Part shown: positions 7,567-62,490 of the stretch, one piece after another
Layout of the letters: each line of letters starts with the position of its first letter
Position numbering within the stretch: the first letter of the stretch is position 1
NCBI GenBank assembly: GCA_964600255.1
Contig: CAZRIX010000001.1
Coordinates: 118,542-182,541 of the forward strand
Direction: 5' to 3'
DNA length: 64,000 nt
Source of the DNA: an uncultured Candidatus Saccharibacteria bacterium
Lineage (GTDB): Bacteria > Patescibacteriota > Minisyncoccia > Phycocordibacterales > PALSA-1337
Notes under the pieces: model-generated
What the model was told of the DNA's origin: nothing
The model's database searches: none
Seen by the model: the letters and a program-made list of their open reading frames with translations, nothing else
Made by a program: the position numbers and the translations under genes

Positions 7567-9805
7567 ACTTTCCTTCCTGTATTTGCTTTATATATGCATC
7601 AGTCTGAGCTTTAATTGCTGGGAACTTATTACCAGCCTTTTTCAATGTCTCAATAGCCAAACTATCCTGACCGTTTAAGATGTATGCATATGCTAGAGGT
7701 GAATATGCTTCCATGTTCTCTGGGTCTTTGTTTATCAGTGCTTGATACCCCGCTATTGCCTTTGAGTACTTCTTTGCAAACATGTATGCGTTTATTACCT
7801 TTGGATCAAAGAATATTTCCTTATCATCAGGGAAAGTCTTTATGGCCTCTGCTTCATTGTTTGTTGAAATGAGAGCGGCAACGTAGTTGGTTTTTGCGAC
7901 TATATTTTCTGGAGCGGATTCATATGCCTGCTTCATTATCTGAAGCCCTTCTGTTGTACTGCCAACGTTCATATAGTTACTAGCCAATTCATACATTATT
8001 GTCTGCTTTCCAGGAGATAGTTTGGCTGCCTTCTCAAGTAGTGGAGTTGCACTCTTTAGATCGCCTATTGAATTGTAGAATGTTCCAGCGAGGATATATA
8101 TACGTGCATCATTTGGTACATCTGCTATATGCTTCTCGATCTCTTGCTTGGCTAGACCATAGAATTCCATCTTGGTATCAAGAGGTATTGATTGGTTATT
8201 TATTACACCAGTAGCACATGAAAGAAACTGTTCCCTAGACTCTTGGTTTGAGAGAGTAAGATCATATCCGACAGCTTTTTTGAAAGGTTCAATAGATAAT
8301 GTCTTGCTACTACCACAACTTCTTAACCCATTTATCAAAGCTTTGTTTGCTAGTATTGGTCTCACATTTATAAAGTAAACAGATACAAGAAATACTATTA
8401 CCATAATAGGCAGGAATAGATAATCTCTCAAAACAATTTGATCATCAGTAGGCTTCTGATCCGCATTTCTAATCAGCATACAATCACTACCTTTTCTTAA
8501 ATTCTTTATGAAAGCGAGTACAATGAAGAACATTACATAACTAGTTTGGTTATCAAAAACGAATATATTGTGTACACCATATCCGACTAGTAAACCTACA
8601 AATGCCGCTTTCTGTCCTACAGTAAGGTCACTTTTGAATATAAAGATGAATGACAATAAATATAGGGACAAGTATGATAGTAAACCAAGTAAACCTCCAG
8701 CAATTAACCAGTCCAAATAGACGTTGTGTGCTCGGTCGAACCATTGTTCGTGCGCGTACATCTTTGGATTATAGTGTGAGTTGAATATGTAGTTGAAATT
8801 CTCTTGACCCACTCCAATAATGGCTGTTTTTGGTGTTTCAAATATACCCTTCACTGCCATTGGCCATATAAATCCTCTAGCCTGAGTCTTAGTATCTGAA
8901 ATTGAAATATTTGCCAATCTACTCAACACCTTGTTTGACTGTATCCATTTTGCATCTCGGTTTGAATAGAATAGTACACCAACAATCAAAATCAATATTA
9001 TCGCACCGCCAGCAAGTCCTCTAGTTAAATTTGATTGGCCATTCTCCTTTCTACCAAAGATCGCGTAGAATGCTGCAAATACAATGAGAGCTGCTACCCA
9101 ACCCAACATACTTCCTCTAGTAGCTGTTTGAAATAGAATGAATGAAAAGAATGCAAAAGATGCAGTATATAGAGTTGTATAAACCACTCTAGTTGGATGG
9201 AACTTTGTAATAGCCAAATACAGAGCAATAAATGCGTTGATAAGCATATATACAGCCATATATGCTGAGTTTCCCAATGATGCATCAACTCTATCTCCTT
9301 GATGTGTTGGTGATACTCCGAAAAACTGTAACAGTCCATAGAAAGCAACAATTAGTCCGGATACTAGTACAACATTAAAGAAGTTATCCCAACTTTTTCG
9401 TGTTGTAAGAACTGAACTAATCACCATAAAGAAAGCCCATAGGTGCGCTATCATGATCCATCCCTCCATTCTCTCGAAGTTAGACCAAATACTCCTTAAT
9501 GGATTCAAGCCGAACAAATCTGCTACCAGAGCAATGAATGCTAGTACCGTTATAGATATAGTAATTGGATTGATCCTAGGCGCAACACTTCTATCGGTAC
9601 CGACTACCGTAGTTCCCTTTTCCCTAAGTATCAAAACAATCCATAGCACAAACAAAATCTCAACAATTATTCTGAATGCAAATGCCTTTCCAGTTATAAA
9701 TGGAAAGAATAGTGAATTACTAACATACAATGGGATAAGGGTGATTAAAGCGAGTCCGGAAATAATAATATTCTTTATTGTATTGTTGATTGTAATGTTG
9801 TTCAT
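7553..9805 (-). CDS. O-antigen ligase/polymerase-like (Wzy_C) polytopic membrane protein with C-terminal TPR repeats
   Basis: 750 aa. The first ~450 aa have ~10-12 TM segments with a large external loop. The C-terminal ~280 aa have TPR-like A/Y/L periodicity (AYSPLAYAYILNGQ...). Confidence 0.5.
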   Translation of the reverse strand: MNNITINNTIKNIIISGLALITLIPLYVSNSLFFPFITGKAFAFRIIVEILFVLWIVLILREKGTTVVGTDRSVAPRINPITISITVLAFIALVADLFGLNPLRSIWSNFERMEGWIMIAHLWAFFMVISSVLTTRKSWDNFFNVVLVSGLIVAFYGLLQFFGVSPTHQGDRVDASLGNSAYMAVYMLINAFIALYLAITKFHPTRVVYTTLYTASFAFFSFILFQTATRGSMLGWVAALIVFAAFYAIFGRKENGQSNLTRGLAGGAIILILIVGVLFYSNRDAKWIQSNKVLSRLANISISDTKTQARGFIWPMAVKGIFETPKTAIIGVGQENFNYIFNSHYNPKMYAHEQWFDRAHNVYLDWLIAGGLLGLLSYLSLYLLSFIFIFKSDLTVGQKAAFVGLLVGYGVHNIFVFDNQTSYVMFFIVLAFIKNLRKGSDCMLIRNADQKPTDDQIVLRDYLFLPIMVIVFLVSVYFINVRPILANKALINGLRSCGSSKTLSIEPFKKAVGYDLTLSNQESREQFLSCATGVINNQSIPLDTKMEFYGLAKQEIEKHIADVPNDARIYILAGTFYNSIGDLKSATPLLEKAAKLSPGKQTIMYELASNYMNVGSTTEGLQIMKQAYESAPENIVAKTNYVAALISTNNEAEAIKTFPDDKEIFFDPKVINAYMFAKKYSKAIAGYQALINKDPENMEAYSPLAYAYILNGQDSLAIETLKKAGNKFPAIKAQTDAYIKQIQEGKFKNQ

Positions 9806-52489: not shown

Positions 52490-52609
52490 TCTTTATAAAA
52501 CTTAATATTATTCGGAATAATAATAGCACACTTTCTACTTACTCCACACCACATACATTCCAGGATAATATACTCCAAACTTAACCTTGATTGGTTTGTT
52601 AATTGATAA

Positions 52610-53653
52610 TTATTTACTGACCGACACTAATTCCACTTTATAAGTCACTGATTCTCCATCATCAACCAAAATCATTGGTTCCACTCCTGTAAACCAATAT
52701 CCCTCCGAAGTCTTAAAAGTTATTTTCCTTACACCACCAACTTTCATCCCAATAACCCCAAGTGCGTAAGAATCGTAGGACTCAATATTAGTATTCAAAT
52801 TTATTTTGAAATTTTTGAACATATTTGTAAGAGTGGGATTATTTGGCATTGTTGAACTGTCATAGGTTTTACCCTTTATATCTACACCCAGTACATTAAT
52901 AACAGCCTTTTCGTTATACCGCGCCAATTCCCCCGTACCAATCTTCACATCGACAATATTTTCTGACGGGAAGTACTGATAATTCGCAGATCCAGGAACT
53001 GCCTCGAGTGATGGATCCAGATTTACATTATTAGTCATTTCTTGTAAAACCCATTTATCATGTGTATTAGTCCAATCTTTTTTGCAATCATTCCTTCTAA
53101 CAAGATAAATATATGCATCACACTCATCAAGTGAATCAAACATGGCATTATTTTTATAAATAATTTTACCTTTTACAGATAGGTCATGATAATTCATGTA
53201 TATAACAGGACAAAGAATAAAGAAAAGTAAAGCTGCAACTACCGTTGAAACAGTTAATTTATCCGTCAGTGGCTTAGTGATATTAAACACAATCAGAGCA
53301 AAAATAAAAAGTATCAGTATACATACAAGTGTTGGAAAAAACGCCAAACCCCAAGGAACAAAGTATGCTGGAATAAAACAAGCCACAATATCAACAACAA
53401 TTAAAATTCCAGCAACTTTAAAAACTTGTTTATTAAATGAACTACTTAAACCCATCCATATTGAAATAATTACACTAGCGATAAAGTAAAATACATATGT
53501 TGCAAAATCGACATCAAAAAACTCAATAGCATGACCATCACTAGTATGAGAACGATAGTGGAAATAGAAGAAAGACACTAAAGAGTATATAAGTAGAAGT
53601 GCACACCCTCTTAAAATTGATAAAGGATTTGTGAATATTTTGTTATTTTCCAT
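52610..53653 (-). CDS. Hypothetical membrane protein with possible C-terminal FKBP-like domain
   Basis: ~5 TM segments then a soluble domain. KGKTYDSS and GMKVGGVRKITF...YKVELVSV weakly resemble FKBP PPIase motifs. First of three repeat-preceded genes next to the tRNA. Confidence 0.4.
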   Translation of the reverse strand: MENNKIFTNPLSILRGCALLLIYSLVSFFYFHYRSHTSDGHAIEFFDVDFATYVFYFIASVIISIWMGLSSSFNKQVFKVAGILIVVDIVACFIPAYFVPWGLAFFPTLVCILILFIFALIVFNITKPLTDKLTVSTVVAALLFFILCPVIYMNYHDLSVKGKIIYKNNAMFDSLDECDAYIYLVRRNDCKKDWTNTHDKWVLQEMTNNVNLDPSLEAVPGSANYQYFPSENIVDVKIGTGELARYNEKAVINVLGVDIKGKTYDSSTMPNNPTLTNMFKNFKINLNTNIESYDSYALGVIGMKVGGVRKITFKTSEGYWFTGVEPMILVDDGESVTYKVELVSVSK

Positions 53654-53748
53654 GGTACTGATTATATCCCACCATTATATTCCTGAATAGCCTGGTGTTT
53701 GTATGCATTTAACAAGAATAAACAACTAAATTAATAAAAGAAATTAAC

Positions 53749-53792
53749 TGGCGGAAAGAGCGCACTTAAGCGACTTTGCTAAGTCGAGATTC
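53749..53792 (-). repeat. R1: tRNA 3'-end-derived direct repeat (minus strand GAATCTCGACTTAGCAAAGTCGCTTAAGTGCGCTCTTTCCGCCA)
   Basis: Near-identical to R3 at 55157-55200. The terminal GCTCTTTCCGCCA equals the acceptor 3' strand plus CCA of the tRNA at 55336-55425. Confidence 0.7.
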
Positions 53793-53845
53793 TATGTTTA
53801 CATATAAGAACGAGATGTGTAGTTTGGAGTAAACCAAAGACTATA

Positions 53846-54526
53846 TCAAATATTTCTGGTAGAGAAATACCTTTTAACTTTTCTAATACCCACGATTAGA
53901 CTGATGGAGAATACAATAAAGATTGTAAGGAAACTTTCATTGTCAGATGAATTGTCAATATCAAACACGAGAGGAACGATAAGTGCCAATCCCCCTACAA
54001 ATAGAGTAGCCCAGAATCTAACTCTCAAAGAAGAGAGGAAGACTTTCATAGGATGACCTCCCTCTATAACTTGAGCTACCTCATAACTTGATCTAAAAGC
54101 TGGAAACCAGGTAGTCCATACACGGTCACTTACGTGATAATCTTCGGAATGCTGGAGCATTACAATTTTACTTCGATATATTTTTGCTAAGTATATATTC
54201 ACAATACCTGAAAGACTCCAACCAATAAAGATTAGAAATAACGTCGATAAAAATACAGCGTAGCCACCTGTCCCAGATATAATTGCAATAATCATTACCA
54301 AACTTGCTCCTGGGAAAAAACTTCCTATGAAATAGAGTCCCTCGATAAATACAGAAAGAAAGGCAGCCAAGTAAATATACTTTTCATCAATGTTTGAAAG
54401 AAAATCTACCAATTCCCCCATACCTGGAATCTCTGAGTTGAGAAAAAGTAGTACACCATATACCGCAAGAGCTGCTGCTGAGATAATCCAAATTATTCCT
54501 GCATATAGTTGATTCTTATTCTCCAT
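53846..54526 (-). CDS. Hypothetical polytopic membrane protein (possible VTT/DedA-like)
   Basis: 226 aa, 5-6 TM segments. FIEGLYFIGSFFPG resembles a DedA re-entrant loop motif. Confidence 0.4.
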   Translation of the reverse strand: MENKNQLYAGIIWIISAAALAVYGVLLFLNSEIPGMGELVDFLSNIDEKYIYLAAFLSVFIEGLYFIGSFFPGASLVMIIAIISGTGGYAVFLSTLFLIFIGWSLSGIVNIYLAKIYRSKIVMLQHSEDYHVSDRVWTTWFPAFRSSYEVAQVIEGGHPMKVFLSSLRVRFWATLFVGGLALIVPLVFDIDNSSDNESFLTIFIVFSISLIVGIRKVKRYFSTRNI

Positions 54527-54564
54527 TGCATAATTTTAACCTAAATCTAATAATTAAGACACAT

Positions 54565-54630
54565 TGCTCGACTCAGCATGCTGTCGCGAAAAGAGCACAT
54601 GTTAGTGACTCGTATAATGAATCTCGATTT
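54565..54630 (-). repeat. R2: diverged copy of the tRNA 3'-end-derived repeat plus shared palindromic box (GCTCGACTCAGCATGCTG)
   Basis: Shares the CAGCATGCTGAGTCGAGCA box with R3. The tRNA-like tail is degenerated (GTGCTCTTTTCGCGACA). Confidence 0.55.
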
Positions 54631-54654
54631 AGGTAATAACCACTACTCTATAAC

Positions 54655-55092
54655 TCACAAACTAAATAAGTAAATTGAGGTTGTCAAAATAAAAAGTATC
54701 AGCCATGTGTACACATACAATCTGTGGTACTTTTTTATCTGATTGCAATATTCAGTAACAAGAGAATCAGTACGGGCATTATCATTCACACCAAGAAAAA
54801 GGCTTTTTTCCATTTTAGTCCACGAAAAAGCAGTTAGAGGATTAAATGAAACTACCTTTGAATTAATTCCGTCTTTGATTAGTGCTGGTGACCATATATT
54901 AAACTTGAAACTATTTGGATAAAGTTTATTTACTCTCCTTCTAAATTTTAGCAGATGCAAGTTAAGCTGTATTATACATATTAAACCAAAAATAAAAAGT
55001 AGAGTGTAGATACCACCCCCAACAATAATAGTGATTGAAAACAAATCTAAAGACTGTATAAATGTGAGTATACTAGTAATCATAGTTAACAT
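54655..55092 (-). CDS. Hypothetical small membrane protein
   Basis: 145 aa with two TM segments at the N-terminus and one at the C-terminus. No motifs. Confidence 0.4.
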   Translation of the reverse strand: MLTMITSILTFIQSLDLFSITIIVGGGIYTLLFIFGLICIIQLNLHLLKFRRRVNKLYPNSFKFNIWSPALIKDGINSKVVSFNPLTAFSWTKMEKSLFLGVNDNARTDSLVTEYCNQIKKYHRLYVYTWLILFILTTSIYLFSL

Positions 55093-55156
55093 AATACAAC
55101 AGATAGTAACCTGAGGCTATAGCATCTCATCGAGACATGCTCGACTCAGCATACTG

Positions 55157-55200
55157 TGGCGGAAAGAGCGCACGTAAGCGACTTTGCTAAGTCGAGATTC
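55157..55200 (-). repeat. R3: tRNA 3'-end-derived direct repeat, contiguous with GC-rich element B
   Basis: TGGCGGAAAGAGCG + 23-nt insert + GAGATTCG mirrors the tRNA 3' end TGGCGGAAAGAGCGAGATTCGAACTCGC at 55336. Confidence 0.7.
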
Positions 55201-55300
55201 GGTCATAGGTCTTCGCCTGCTGGCTCAGCCTACGACCCTGCCTCCTTCGCCTTCGCTCAGTCCGGCTTTCTCATCTCGTCTTTCTTTGCAGTCAGACGCT
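55195..55300 (-). ncRNA. GC-rich conserved element B (about 85 nt core), candidate structured RNA or recombination arm. Paralogue of element A at 62251-62347
   Basis: The minus-strand core GAGATGAGAAAGCCGGA...GAGGC.GGGTCG...GAGCCAGCAGGCGA.GAC...TGACCGAATC is conserved between the two loci. It is GC-rich in an AT-rich genome and lies immediately 3' of a tRNA and a short hairpin. Confidence 0.45.
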
Positions 55301-55335
55301 CTGTTCAGAAGCCATTCAGGCTTCTTCACAGATCG

Positions 55336-55425
55336 TGGCGGAAAGAGCGAGATTCGAACTCGCGGTTCCAATTAAGGAACGGCGGTTTAGTAAACCGCTG
55401 GTTTAAACCACTCACCCATCTTTCC
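55336..55425 (-). tRNA. Class II (long variable arm) tRNA, Ser-type identity (G73), anticodon loop UUACUAA = nominal anticodon ACU. CCA encoded
   Basis: Manual fold: acceptor GGAAAGA/TCTTTCC, 3-bp D-stem with GG in the loop, anticodon stem GCGGT/ACCGC, variable stem GTTCC/GGAAC, T-arm GCGAG-TTCGAAT-CTCGC, then G-CCA. Confidence 0.7.
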
Positions 55426-55494
55426 ATAGCTATACTATACGAAAATTGAGGACATTTTACAAATTTTTGATAATTACCATGATATAATTATCAT

Positions 55495-61044: not shown

Positions 61045-61092
61045 TGCGGAACCGGAGGGATTCGAGCCCTCGTGACCTTTAGAGGGGCTCCA
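61045..61092 (-). pseudogene. Partial tRNA-Ser(GCU) copy (3' ~45 nt: acceptor 3' strand, T-arm and part of variable arm), att-like direct repeat
   Basis: TGCGGAACCGGAGGGATTCGAGCCCTCG matches the 3' end of the tRNA at 62403-62490 (TGCGGAACCGGAGGGATTCGAACCCTCG). No 5' half is present. Confidence 0.6.
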
Positions 61093-61241
61093 GGTACTTT
61101 TATCGCTTTTTCGTGAGGCACTCGGATCAACTTTATTCTAGTAAGGCAGTAATTTCTTTTTTTGTCATAACTTCAACATCGTTAAACATGTGAAGTATAT
61201 CGCCACTAAGTCCATAATGTAATCTTGTTGAGTTTGTGACT

Positions 61242-61781
61242 TCAATTGCCTTTACAAATAAGTCTTGAATCATGTTGGGAGTTAGTCCTATTTTTTTCAT
61301 AAAAAAAATCTATATCTCTTAAAGTTTCAACTTCAGAATGCATTAGAATCTTATCACGAACATCCTTTAATTTATTTAGTGTGTCCTCAAATCCAGCAAA
61401 CTGAATATCTAATAAGTAGTAGATAGACAAAACATCAGGAAACCTACCATTTTGTTTTTCAAAAGTTTTCGCGAGTCCTGACATACAGCTCTTTAAAAAA
61501 GATGTTCTGGTTGTTAACCAGAAAGTTTTATTTTTAACATCCTCATTATTTCTAAATGATTCTGTTATAAAATACCAGTAGCTAAACTCTCTATATGAAC
61601 TTAGTAAGTTCCCAACAAAAATGTCAAAATCTTTATTTTCCTGTTTTCTCATTTGTAAGTACCTTAAAGACCAAACTAAAATAGTCATCCAAATCAAAGC
61701 GTCTTTCAGGAAATTGGTCATTGATAGACCTAATAAAATGCCAAAGGATAAAATCCTTTTCCCATTCAGATAACTTACCAT
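61242..61781 (-). CDS. Hypothetical protein (islet cargo), possibly the 3' part of a frameshifted gene
   Basis: Overlaps the upstream ORF by 149 nt in a different frame. Confidence 0.35.
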   Translation of the reverse strand: MVSYLNGKRILSFGILLGLSMTNFLKDALIWMTILVWSLRYLQMRKQENKDFDIFVGNLLSSYREFSYWYFITESFRNNEDVKNKTFWLTTRTSFLKSCMSGLAKTFEKQNGRFPDVLSIYYLLDIQFAGFEDTLNKLKDVRDKILMHSEVETLRDIDFFYEKNRTNSQHDSRLICKGN

Positions 61782-62187
61782 TATTAATCATTGAATCTAG
61801 TTTACTATCCCAATTACTTAGTTCTTTTGATATATCTTCCTTTACCCTTTGCATCTGTTCCCTTCTAATTAGGCCCTTCTCTGCCTTAATTTTGTCGTTC
61901 ATGATTTTATAGCGTCCCAAATAAATGCAATAGGCGAGATCATTCCGATTAGTAGAAGAATTGTGCTCTATATTTTCATTTACGCTCCGAGTTACAAAAT
62001 CTCTAATCTCCTCTTTCATTTCCTCTGACACCTTAAAATAAAGATTAGGGAAAAGTTGTCCAATTTTTTCCTCACTTTTCTCGGAAAGTTTTAATTCTAT
62101 TTCGTACTTTTTACCACTATTTAGTTTTACTAGTTGATACGCAATAAAAGCCAAAACTCCAATAATTATTATAAATGCCCAATTCAT
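61633..62187 (-). CDS. Hypothetical protein with N-terminal TM anchor (islet cargo)
   Basis: MNWAFIIIIGVLAFIAYQLV anchor then a Lys/Glu-rich soluble region. No motifs. Confidence 0.4.
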   Translation of the reverse strand: MNWAFIIIIGVLAFIAYQLVKLNSGKKYEIELKLSEKSEEKIGQLFPNLYFKVSEEMKEEIRDFVTRSVNENIEHNSSTNRNDLAYCIYLGRYKIMNDKIKAEKGLIRREQMQRVKEDISKELSNWDSKLDSMINNGKLSEWEKDFILWHFIRSINDQFPERRFDLDDYFSLVFKVLTNEKTGK

Positions 62188-62250
62188 ACTTTAATTATAA
62201 CCTGAACTTGGTAATTCATGTACTCGGGTCGCTTTTATGTCGTCCTACTT

Positions 62251-62347
62251 TGCGGAAACGGAGGGATTCGGTCACGAGTCCTCGCCTGCTGGCTCGGCTC
62301 TCGACCCCGCCTCGGACACCTTCGTGTCCTCCGGCTTTCTCATCTCC
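62251..62347 (-). ncRNA. GC-rich conserved element A with tRNA-Ser 3'-end mimic tail (paralogue of element B)
   Basis: The minus strand reads GGAGATGAGAAAGCCGGAGGACACGAAGGTGTCCGAGGCGGGGTCGAGAGCCGAGCCAGCAGGCGAGGACTCGTGACCGAATCCCTCCGTTTCCGCA. It is separated from the tRNA by the hairpin GTTGACC-TCG-GTCAAC. Confidence 0.45.
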
Positions 62348-62402
62348 ACACTTCCACAATATGCTCGATTCAGTTGACCGAGGTCAACTTCATCGATCAT
62401 TG

Positions 62403-62490
62403 CGGAACCGGAGGGATTCGAACCCTCGAGGCCTTTAAAGGGCCTGCCTCTTTAGCAAAGAGGTATGTTAGACCACTCCACCACGGTTCC
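62403..62490 (-). tRNA. tRNA-Ser (anticodon GCU), class II
   Basis: Manual fold: acceptor GGAACCG/CGGTTCC, anticodon arm CCTCT-TTGCTAA-AGAGG, long variable arm GGCC-CTTTAAA-GGCC, T-arm GAGGG-TTCGAAT-CCCTC, discriminator G. CCA not encoded. Confidence 0.85.

What the first reader, a model, noticed from the sequence alone, without database searches (positions are those of the whole stretch)
53740..55430. tRNA-anchored array: three small membrane-protein genes, each preceded by a copy of the tRNA 3' end
Directly visible. The minus-strand tRNA at 55336-55425 ends ...GCGAGTTCGAATCTCGCTCTTTCCGCCA. Copies of its 3' end lie upstream of each of three consecutive minus-strand genes: 54655-55092, 53846-54526 and 52610-53653. 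R3 and R1 are near-identical (GAATCTCG + a 23-nt insert ACTTAGCAAAGTCGCTTA[C/A]GTGC + GCTCTTTCCGCCA). R2 is a decayed copy. R2 and R3 also share a palindromic box CAGCATGCTGAGTCGAGCA.
One reading is serial site-specific integration at a tRNA attB, with each insertion regenerating the tRNA and leaving an attR-like remnant. That would be a cassette-like accretion of membrane-protein genes. No integrase gene is present in or near the array, so the mobilising enzyme would act in trans or be lost.
The alternative is a tRNA-mimic leader or promoter that has been duplicated together with paralogous genes.
Basis: partly seen in the sequence, partly recalled or inferred. Interest (0 to 1): 0.85.

Follow-up and report, generated by a model that had tools for sequence, protein, structure and literature searches.

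The report
tRNA-Ser insertion hotspot with tRNA-mimic RNA
Downstream of a serine tRNA gene in a tiny-genome (CPR/Paceibacteria) bacterium, single genes have been inserted one after another, each junction marked by a copy of the tRNA's 3' end; the first copy belongs to a widespread structured RNA, absent from Rfam and from the literature I could search, that mimics the top half of its neighbouring tRNA.

Summary
tRNA-Ser(ACU) (55336-55425, minus) is followed by three copies of its 3' end: R3, R2 and R1. The 44-nt R3 and R1 are 98% identical.

The serial-insertion reading is largely supported.
- One relative has an empty site, with the tRNA followed directly by box, leader and the 226-aa gene.
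- Sibling strains carry four repeats and different genes after R1, and homology breaks exactly at R1's last base.
- The three proteins are unrelated.
- The same window holds a second array at tRNA-Ser(GCU).

No recombinase is encoded in the window or next to related arrays.

- It sits behind at least 12 tRNA species in Paceibacteria.
- It usually ends in a copy of its own tRNA from T-loop position 57 to about 74.
- It shows strong covariation and has no Rfam family.
- The "23-nt insert" is an optional hairpin of this RNA.
- R2 plus box is the original tRNA end, displaced.

Best reading: an integrase-less, tRNA-Ser-anchored cassette islet, a new variant of tRNA-targeting islands. It is seeded by an apparently undescribed tRNA top-half mimic. 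The enzyme and the RNA's function are unknown.

The parts
55336..55425 (-). tRNA-Ser(ACU), the anchor gene; CCA is encoded, and a promoter-like site lies at 55434-55462
   Evidence: Called by ARAGORN and by Rfam tRNA at 56 bits. It is conserved next to the FAD oxidase gene in 9 related genomes, with compensatory stem changes.
55201..55335 (-). Element E, a GC-rich structured RNA. It consists of a P1 hairpin (55307-55325), a pseudo-5' acceptor/T-stem strand, and the conserved core GAUGAGAAAG-P2-P3-GG-P4...GACC (55201-55275).
   Evidence: 54% GC. Fold z = -4.9. 91% identical to the trailer of tRNA-Ser(GCU) in L048. Covariation: 96% of cells paired, 11 of 18 pairs compensatory, 0 of 500 shuffles as good. 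The covariance model scores it at 90.5 bits. No Rfam family matches.
55157..55200 (-). R3: a copy of tRNA positions 57 to CCA with a 24-nt hairpin insert; it is the 3' strand of E's closing helix
   Evidence: Equivalent copies, with or without hairpin inserts, occur in about 30 other loci. The hairpin covaries between strains: CTT/AAG here versus CCC/GGG in L127.
55138..55156 (-). Box 1 (CAGTATGCTGAGTCGAGCA): a degenerate copy of the conserved tRNA-Ser trailer module, leading into the 145-aa gene
   Evidence: Comparison with trailer modules.
54655..55092 (-). Cassette gene m145, a 145-aa membrane protein with no Pfam family
   Evidence: Present as 142/145 aa in sibling strains. Absent from L131.
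54565..54632 (-). R2 (54584-54610, decayed), the inverted 14-mer (54619-54632) and box 2 (54565-54583). Together these are the displaced former tRNA 3' end, still joined to the trailer and leader of m226.
   Evidence: In L131 the intact tRNA-Ser(ACU) is followed directly by the homologous box, leader and gene.
53846..54526 (-). m226, a 226-aa DedA-like membrane protein from a family habitually placed just downstream of a tRNA-Ser gene
   Evidence: 167 homologues. Homologues sit directly after tRNA-Ser(ACU) in L131, after tRNA-Ser(CGA) in L137-139, after a copy of the tRNA-Ser(GCU) end in L132, and about 2 kb after tRNA-Ser(GGA) in L140/141.
53749..53792 (-). R1: a solo 44-nt copy of R3 that acts as a recombination junction
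   Evidence: Homology between the window and sibling strain L127 ends exactly at 53749.
52599..53748 (-). The m347 segment (gene at 52610-53653) with its own leader. It replaced the p457-R0-p266 segment seen in sibling strains.
   Evidence: A remnant of the p266 3' end lies at about 52535-52598. m347 homologues lie directly after a tRNA-Ser 3' end plus trailer (L134) or after an E'-like element (L133).
61045..62490 (-). A second, analogous array in the same window. Order: tRNA-Ser(GCU) 62402-62490; E about 62270-62400; a copy of this tRNA's 3' end at 62251-62269; two ORFs; a distal 45-nt tRNA 3'-half fragment at 61045-61089; then a 154-aa membrane protein gene.

Best explanation
The locus is a tRNA-Ser(ACU)-anchored hypervariable islet in a Paceibacteria (CPR) genome. 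It was built by successive insertions into the 3' segment of the tRNA gene, or into displaced copies of that segment.

Shown:
1. The ancestral state was tRNA, then trailer ('box'), then m226.
2. A ~190-nt structured RNA element E now lies between the tRNA and a duplicate of tRNA positions 57 to about 74 (R3). The tRNA keeps an intact 3' end.
3. A unit of box plus m145 separates R3 from the old tRNA end (R2).
4. At R1 the downstream genes have been exchanged between strains, and the breakpoint falls exactly at the repeat's 3' end.

Inferred:
- Each event was a conservative recombination between a tRNA-3'-end-like site on the chromosome and the same short sequence on incoming DNA.
- It was catalysed in trans by a recombinase encoded elsewhere in the genome or on a helper, with crossover inside the roughly 18-20-nt identity block.
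- The cargo genes are ones that sit behind tRNA-Ser genes in donor genomes. Their co-transcription with the tRNA is suggested but not tested.

E itself is a tRNA 'top-half' (acceptor plus T-arm minihelix) mimic with a ~65-nt structured core in its T-loop. It is transcribed with the tRNA and probably processed like one. Its function is not established.
For: - Empty site: in L131 the tRNA-Ser(ACU) is followed directly by the sequence that follows R2 in the window.
- Strain variation: L127-L130 carry R3, R2, R1 and an extra R0, with p457 and p266 in place of m347. Homology ends at base 53749, the last base of R1, and resumes in a p266 remnant.
- The region between comF and the tRNA ranges from 0.6 to 6.3 kb and has unrelated content in relatives.
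- The three proteins are unrelated.
- Independent arrays of the same design occur at tRNA-Ser(GCU) in this window and in L132, where the repeats match that other tRNA.
- m226 and m347 homologues lie directly behind tRNA-Ser genes or E-type elements in other genomes.
- E has 50 instances in 47 sources. It sits behind tRNA-Ser (five anticodons), Tyr, Val, Arg (two anticodons), Met, Ile and Leu.
- The downstream copy starts at T-loop position 57 whatever the loop sequence is.
- The modal identical block is 18 nt. The proximal copy runs into E's conserved left end (AATGAT...). The distal copy runs into CA plus the original trailer.
- Covariation supports the fold, with a conserved G.U pair that fixes the strand. 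The closing helix pairs better with its own 3' copy than with others, p = 0.0017.
- Terminator-like hairpins (GC-rich stem then a T-run, read by eye; no scan was run on those loci) follow E in L089 and L119.
Against: - No integrase, transposase or reverse transcriptase was found in the 64-kb window or conserved next to E in about 50 loci. The catalyst is therefore hypothetical.
- A ~190-bp element is very small for a double-stranded circular intermediate.
- E's terminal duplication matches at least 12 different tRNAs. A simple att-carrying element does not explain this; it suggests a target duplication or later repair.
- R3 and R1 share strain-specific hairpin sequences. This could reflect gene conversion or an RNA-level function rather than recombination history.
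- Some E copies lack the tRNA-derived 3' strand (L075, L098, L112, L120) or have no tRNA detected upstream (L090, L114, L119).
- No excised or circular form was observed.
Confidence: 0.55

Rival explanations
1. Homology-anchored acquisition without any site-specific enzyme. DNA taken up by the competence/type IV pilus machinery from other Paceibacteria recombines using the highly conserved tRNA-Ser 3' end (or its R copies) as a one-sided homology anchor. The other side joins illegitimately. Repeats and cassettes accumulate as by-products.
For: - The right-hand junction of the m347 replacement lies inside the 3' end of p266 and has no repeat, which is the mark of an illegitimate join.
- Donor-like arrangements exist, with a tRNA-Ser end, then trailer, then an m347 or m226 homologue.
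- No recombinase is encoded locally.
- pilM and comF flank the islet.
Against: - Anchors of 18-44 nt are short for RecA-dependent exchange.
- E's duplication has the same precise limits (position 57 to about 74) at many different tRNAs. That points to an enzyme with defined cut sites.
- One-sided anchoring does not by itself create direct repeats.
Confidence: 0.2
2. The repeats are functional RNA elements rather than scars. The whole array is transcribed from the tRNA promoter, and each tRNA-3'-end-like R (with its hairpin and box) serves as a processing or stability signal for the downstream mRNA, for example recognised by RNase P, RNase Z or the CCA-adding enzyme. Selection keeps them and gene conversion homogenises them.
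For: - All genes are co-oriented with the tRNA, with short spacers and no terminator predicted between them.
- The hairpin in R3 and R1 keeps its pairing through double changes between strains.
- The box/trailer module is conserved upstream of m226 and m347 homologues in many genomes.
- E is clearly an RNA-level structure.
Against: - R2 and R0 are decayed.
- R1 has no partner 5' strand, so it cannot form a minihelix.
- Relatives express the same gene families without R copies (L131, L137).
- This reading does not explain how the unrelated genes arrived. It is compatible with, rather than an alternative to, insertion.
Confidence: 0.2
3. Tandem duplication of a gene together with its tRNA-like leader, followed by divergence of the paralogues.
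For: The R-plus-box unit is duplicated (46 nt, 85% identity).
Against: - The three proteins show no detectable similarity, with BLASTP E values from 0.3 to 6.
- m226 and m347 belong to separate families with their own homologues elsewhere.
- An empty site exists.
Confidence: 0.02

Closest known systems
Genomic islands built by serial integration at tRNA or tmRNA genes, such as Prochlorococcus tycheposon islands (bioRxiv 10.1101/2020.12.28.424599) and Dehalococcoides ssrA islands (PMC3146451)
   Same: - The tRNA gene stays intact.
- Partial tRNA 3'-end repeats mark successive insertions, and new arrivals push older ones outward.
- The host genome is streamlined, and content varies at strain level.
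- The identity block starts in the T-loop, as at the T-loop attB of phage Ms6 (PMC1762012).
   Different: - No integrase or integrase remnant was found anywhere in the arrays or in the window.
- The units are single genes of 0.6-1.3 kb rather than multi-gene elements.
- The first unit is a ~190-nt structured RNA.
- The same gene families recur behind different tRNA-Ser isoacceptors.
Cis-mobilizable elements (CIMEs) and other non-autonomous integrative elements that accrete in tandem (reviewed in PMC5704250)
   Same: DNA segments flanked by att-like repeats that lack recombination genes, arranged in tandem at a tRNA 3' end and presumed to be mobilised in trans.
   Different: No cognate autonomous element or integrase is known here. 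The size is an order of magnitude smaller. The flanking repeat contains a structured hairpin that covaries.
Integron cassette arrays and CALINs (attC clusters without an integrase). This comparison rests on my own knowledge.
   Same: An ordered series of co-oriented single-gene units, each bounded by a short hairpin-forming repeat and sitting downstream of a strongly transcribed anchor. Cassette content differs between strains.
   Different: No IntI is present. I did not recognise the attC R''/R' consensus by eye at R1, though no attC model was run. The repeats derive from a tRNA 3' end. The anchor is a tRNA gene rather than attI.
tRNA-like RNAs: the tmRNA tRNA-like domain, YrlA/Y RNA-like RNAs, viral 3' tRNA-like structures and acceptor-T-arm minihelices. 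This comparison rests on my own knowledge, plus Rfam for tmRNA and YrlA.
   Same: E can form an acceptor/T-stem-like coaxial helix that ends in the discriminator base and often CCA. It lacks the D and anticodon arms.
   Different: E copies the acceptor/T sequence of whichever tRNA lies upstream. It carries a ~65-nt three-helix core in the T-loop. It has no tag ORF. Neither ARAGORN's tmRNA search nor any Rfam model matches it.

Membership tests
tRNA-targeting integrative element / genomic island (attL-attR) | Direct repeats of the tRNA 3' segment flank the inserted DNA, and the tRNA gene stays intact | tested here: met
tRNA-targeting integrative element / genomic island (attL-attR) | An unoccupied site exists in related genomes | tested here: met
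   In L131 the tRNA is followed directly by box and m226. In L005 and L012 the tRNA is followed within a short distance by unrelated small genes.
tRNA-targeting integrative element / genomic island (attL-attR) | A tyrosine or serine recombinase gene lies inside or next to the element | tested here: not met
   tblastn with XerD, lambda Int and Hin found nothing in the window below E = 0.8. A XerD homologue in L118 served as positive control at 6e-44. No protein family recurs next to E across loci. Pfam was run only on the 7 nearest ORFs.
tRNA-targeting integrative element / genomic island (attL-attR) | Excision and a circular intermediate | not testable with these tools
   This needs read-level population data or an experiment.
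Integron / CALIN | An IntI integrase and an attI site | tested here: not met
Integron / CALIN | attC sites with the R''/L''-L'/R' architecture and a GTTRRRY core | tested here: inconclusive
   R contains a 6-bp hairpin only. The sequence after R1 (GTTAATT) does not fit GTTRRRY. This was an inspection by eye; no attC model was run.
Rfam RNA families (tmRNA, YrlA, self-cleaving ribozymes, group I intron and others) as the identity of element E | A score at or above the family gathering threshold | tested here: not met
   No hit on E at E-value up to 10 or up to 1. ARAGORN finds no tmRNA.
tRNA intron (group I or archaeal-type) as the identity of element E | It interrupts an otherwise complete tRNA, so that removal restores a canonical tRNA | tested here: not met
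   In most loci a complete tRNA precedes E. In the one interrupted case (L089 3341-3498, Rfam tRNA 37 bits) the flanks lack a variable arm and the TTC of the T-loop. At ~87 nt the core is shorter than the group I introns I know of (roughly 200 nt and up; my own knowledge).
Structured non-coding RNA (generic) | Compensatory base changes support the helices, and strand-specific G.U pairs are present | tested here: met
   96% of cells paired, 11 of 18 pairs with double changes, 0 of 500 shuffles as good. G.U occurs at one position in 34 of 35 sequences. Caveat: the invariant single-stranded blocks were required by the search pattern. Divergent covariance-model hits show that they do vary.

The most novel reading that the evidence does not exclude
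Element E is a new class of protein-less, tRNA-associated genetic element. It is an RNA-structured unit of ~150-190 nt that lands in the T-loop of tRNA genes between positions 56 and 57. It duplicates the 18-nt segment from 57 to 74, so the tRNA survives. The resulting 'mini-tRNA' copy of the tRNA top half is co-transcribed and matured like a tRNA. Its 3' copy then serves as a secondary landing site for promoter-poor single-gene cassettes. That would make it an integron-like gene-capture platform for ultra-small genomes, working with an unknown (possibly host) enzyme or an RNA-level mechanism.
Probability: 0.25. Interest if true: 0.85.

Novelty: new variant of a known kind. Interest (0 to 1): 0.7.

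Why it matters
CPR/Patescibacteria have tiny genomes. As far as I know, few mobile elements have been described in them, and how they exchange genes is poorly understood. In this locus, strain-level gene turnover is concentrated behind tRNA-Ser genes, at junctions marked by tRNA 3'-end copies, with no integrase in sight. That makes the question of which enzyme or RNA does this directly testable.

Element E is also of interest on its own. It is abundant, strongly structured and not in Rfam. It copies the acceptor/T-arm of whichever tRNA it follows. It could be a new tRNA-like RNA, such as a processing substrate, a decoy or a non-translational acceptor, or it could be a new kind of non-autonomous mobile element.

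Tried and rejected
- Tandem-duplication origin of the three genes: rejected, since BLASTP finds no similarity.
- Chance repeats: rejected by shuffles.
- E as a known RNA family: no Rfam hit on E, and ARAGORN finds no tmRNA. By eye I compared E with the hammerhead, HDV-like, twister, box C/D k-turn and SRP consensus sequences and saw no convincing fit. That comparison rests on my own knowledge and is not a formal test.
- E as a tRNA intron: rejected, because a complete tRNA precedes it in most loci.
- E as the attP end of a phage: no match in IMG/VR or in GenBank phages.
- A protein partner encoded next to E: clustering of ORFs within 4 kb of 50 copies found only housekeeping synteny such as RecG, IF-2, ComF and PilM.
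- Retroviral-type primer-binding-site reading of the plus strand: dropped. The complementarity extends into the genomic trailer rather than the CCA end, and the genes lie on the other strand.
- TnpB omega-RNA or IS110 bridge-RNA analogies: considered because of the 'scaffold plus target-matching 3' end' layout. No such protein is nearby, and the intact tRNA would itself be a target.
- P1 covariation in a fixed register: inconclusive because bulges shift the register. I used a duplex-energy test of cognate versus non-cognate pairs instead.
- Naming the source assembly: the exact-protein look-up returned no record and the cluster entries carry no names.
Full report
**1. Observation**

The minus strand carries a tRNA-Ser at 55336-55425, with anticodon ACU and CCA encoded (ARAGORN; Rfam tRNA 56 bits).

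Its terminal 13-mer GCTCTTTCCGCCA recurs at 55157-69 and 53749-61 (both exact) and at 54584-96 (two mismatches). The chance expectation is 0.6 per window, and 0 of 100 shuffles reached four matches.

- R3 (55157-55200) and R1 (53749-53792) are 44-nt copies, 43/44 identical.
- Each is GAATCTCG, a 24-nt insert, then CTCTTTCCGCCA.
- The insert holds a perfect hairpin, CGACTT-AGCA-AAGTCG.
- The 19-nt box follows R3 and R2 but not R1.
- R2 has lost the direct GAATCTCG and carries an inverted 14-mer instead.
- The three ORFs (145, 226 and 347 aa) are hydrophobic membrane proteins. Two have no Pfam family; the third has a sub-threshold FKBP-like C-terminus.

**2.

The 180 nt between the tRNA and R3 is 54% GC in a genome of about 35% GC. 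It folds with z = -4.9.

It is 91% identical to the sequence that follows tRNA-Ser(GCU) in a related genome, L048. A third copy follows the window's own tRNA-Ser(GCU) at 62402-62490. There the copy ends in that tRNA's 3' end, GAATCCCTCCGTTTCCGCA.

**3. Organism and local variability**

The adjacent FAD oxidase gene retrieved 80 loci from species-representative genomes. All are Paceibacteria/Parcubacteria-type CPR MAGs.

tRNA-Ser(ACU) sits next to that gene in nine of them, with compensatory stem changes, so it is a real gene.

The stretch between comF and the tRNA is 0.6 kb in L005, 0.85 kb in L012, about 2.7 kb in L048, about 3.6 kb in L009 and 6.3 kb in the window. Its content is unrelated from one genome to the next. 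None of these species representatives has the R repeats.

**4. Element E**

A metagenome scan with the conserved blocks of the GC-rich sequence returned 45 loci.

*Position and tRNA copy.*
- Where upstream sequence is available, E usually lies 43-85 nt behind a tRNA gene.
- Hosts include tRNA-Ser with all five anticodons seen (GCU, GGA, CGA, UGA, ACU), and also Tyr, Val, Arg and Met.
- Its ...GACC end is followed by a copy of that same tRNA from the T-loop onward.
- A covariance model built from 35 copies found further, more divergent copies behind tRNA-Met, Arg(GCG), Ile and Leu, with up to five copies in one 12-kb locus.
- In the Met, Arg(GCG) and Leu copies the junction follows the local T-loop: GACC|GATTCC..., or GGGC|GAGTCC... 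in the Leu copy. So where a copy is present it starts at tRNA position 57. The two Ile copies have no tRNA-derived 3' copy.

*Identity block.*
- The modal identical block between the tRNA and its downstream copy is 18 nt, positions 57 to 74. Thirteen of 29 instances share 18 nt or more.
- After the block, the tRNA-proximal copy runs into E's conserved left end, AATGAT....
- The distal copy runs into CA plus the ordinary tRNA trailer.

*Structure.*
- Three helices are supported by covariation: 96% of cells paired, 11 of 18 pairs with double changes, and 0 of 500 shuffles as good.
- A G.U pair kept in 34 of 35 sequences assigns the structure to the tRNA strand.
- The nucleotides 5' of the core are a degenerate complement of the 3' copy. 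They pair with their own 3' copy better than with others, p = 0.0017. A fixed-register count was inconclusive.
- E therefore looks like the acceptor plus T-arm 'top half' of its neighbour tRNA, with a ~65-nt core in the T-loop.
- Several copies carry an extra hairpin between the T-stem and acceptor strands (L092, L095, L126 and the window).
- In sibling strains the hairpin is CGACCC-AGCG-GGGTCG, so pairing is kept through double changes.

*Transcription and database status.*
- Terminator-like hairpins, read by eye, follow E in L089 and L119. This suggests co-transcription with the tRNA.
- No Rfam family matches E.
- E was not found in IMG/VR or GenBank phages.
- No protein family recurs beside it.
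- My literature searches found no description of it.
- Caveat: the invariant single-stranded blocks were imposed by my search pattern.

**5. The array is a record of insertions**

*Empty site.* The 226-aa protein belongs to a 167-member Paceibacteria family. In L131 (89% identical protein) the intact tRNA-Ser(ACU) is followed directly by AAGCATGCTGAGTCGAGG...TTAGATTTAAGTTAAAATT and the gene. That is the sequence which follows R2 in the window. R2 plus box is therefore the former tRNA end and trailer. E, R3, box 1 and m145 were inserted upstream of it.

*Sibling strains.* L127-L130 (98% identical protein) have the order tRNA, E' (a rearranged variant), R3, m142/145, R2, m226, R1, p457, a decayed R0, p266 (inositol phosphatase family), then the beta-helix gene.

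*Breakpoint.* Homology between the window and L127 stops at 53749, the last base of R1. It resumes at 52598 inside a 64-nt remnant of the p266 3' end. So m347 with its leader replaced p457-R0-p266 in the window lineage.

*Donor-like arrangements.* m347 is rare, with nine homologues. One lies directly behind a tRNA-Ser 3' end plus trailer (L134), and another behind an E'-like element (L133).

*m226 in other genomes.*
- Directly behind tRNA-Ser(CGA) in L137-139.
- Behind a copy of the tRNA-Ser(GCU) end in L132. That tRNA's end occurs three times there, and toxin-antitoxin genes are nearby.
- About 2 kb behind tRNA-Ser(GGA) in L140/141, with the trailer module retained.

*Second array in the window.* The GCU site has a distal 45-nt tRNA 3'-half fragment (61045-61089) enclosing two ORFs.

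The three proteins of the ACU array show no mutual similarity.

**6. Mechanism**

*Shown:* repeated insertion and replacement at tRNA-3'-end-like sites, with exact left junctions. The tRNA is preserved. Content varies at strain level.

*Not shown:* the catalyst.

My preferred reading is conservative site-specific recombination in trans within the 18-20-nt identity block. This is the way tRNA-targeting integrases work, and successive arrivals then displace earlier ones. Published parallels are tycheposon islands (10.1101/2020.12.28.424599), ssrA islands (PMC3146451) and CIME accretion (PMC5704250).

Two facts fit this only loosely:
- E is very small.
- Its duplication matches at least 12 different tRNAs, which suggests a true target-site duplication or later repair.

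Alternative readings:
- Homology-anchored uptake of foreign DNA could explain the ragged right junction at m347.
- An RNA-level role for the R copies, as processing signals in a transcript driven by the tRNA promoter, would explain the conserved hairpin and box. It is compatible with the insertion history.

**7. Verdict**

The array is a new, integrase-less, single-gene-scale variant of tRNA-anchored islands. Its first unit is an apparently undescribed, widespread structured RNA that mimics the tRNA top half.

Noticed in passing
window 55336-55425 (-); also L004, L005, L009-L012, L048, L058, L075, L094, L127, L131, L136: A tRNA-Ser with anticodon ACU (A34) is conserved across this Paceibacteria clade, with compensatory stem changes. 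It exists alongside the usual tRNA-Ser(GCU), and the two are in tandem in L136. An A34 serine tRNA is unusual for bacteria (my own knowledge). How it decodes AGY/AGN codons is open.
   Followed up: partly
window 61045-62490 (-): A second array lies behind tRNA-Ser(GCU). Order: E, a copy of that tRNA's 3' end (62251-62269), two ORFs (184 and 179 aa, overlapping calls), a 45-nt tRNA 3'-half fragment (61045-61089), then a 154-aa membrane protein gene.
   Followed up: partly
window 62220-62232 and 55138-55156; L011, L025, L048, L085, L113, L114, L132, L134, L136: A conserved trailer module (roughly TATCGGYRTGACCCGAGT) follows many tRNA-Ser genes or their downstream copies. Its function is unknown; it could be a processing site, a promoter or a small RNA.
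   Followed up: partly
L089 3338-3498 (-): The 5' part of a tRNA-Ser(UGA) (acceptor, D and anticodon arms) runs straight into E and then into the matching 3' end. Rfam's tRNA model spans the whole 158 nt at 37 bits. It is either a deletion derivative (pseudogene) or a tRNA with a giant T-loop insertion.
   Followed up: partly
L127 5179-5326 (sibling strain), compared with window 55201-55335: Between near-identical strains, element E has been swapped for a rearranged variant, E'. The variant has the same sub-helices in a different order and contains both CGAATCC and a second GATGAGAGG. Comparing L090, L127 and the window shows a mosaic: the hairpin P1, the core and the 3' copy each group the three sequences differently.
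   Followed up: partly
L009 7760-7848 and L010 60-154 (tRNA strand); inverted in L090 60-140, L119 1-125 and L114: Another conserved ~80-nt sequence (GCGGTGYGTATTGGACGAAGTTCGAAT...) directly follows tRNA-Ser(ACU) in some genomes. In others it lies in the opposite orientation just upstream of E, where no tRNA was detected in the available upstream sequence.
   Followed up: no
window 52535-52598 (-): A 64-nt remnant of the 3' end of an inositol-monophosphatase-family gene, which is intact in sibling strain L127 at 8341-9141, lies between m347 and the beta-helix gene. It marks the replacement event.
   Followed up: yes
L089 7812-8057 (+): Rfam detects a group I intron (51 bits, just above the gathering score) about 120 nt upstream of a weak E-like hit (8179-8312). 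It is apparently inside a tRNA gene whose 3' exon precedes that E copy.
   Followed up: no
L132 4048-4570 and 8332-8664: Toxin-antitoxin genes (RelB/YafQ and PemK) lie in the variable region around the tRNA-Ser(GCU) array that holds the m226 homologue. This fits an island-like region.
   Followed up: no
window 54619-54632 versus 55187-55200 and 53779-53792: R2 carries the first 14 nt of R (GAATCTCGACTTAG) in inverted orientation, 13/14 identical. This hints that the ancestral site was a longer palindrome, GAATCTCGAC-N8-GTCGAGATTC, which resembles a recombinase core site.
   Followed up: no
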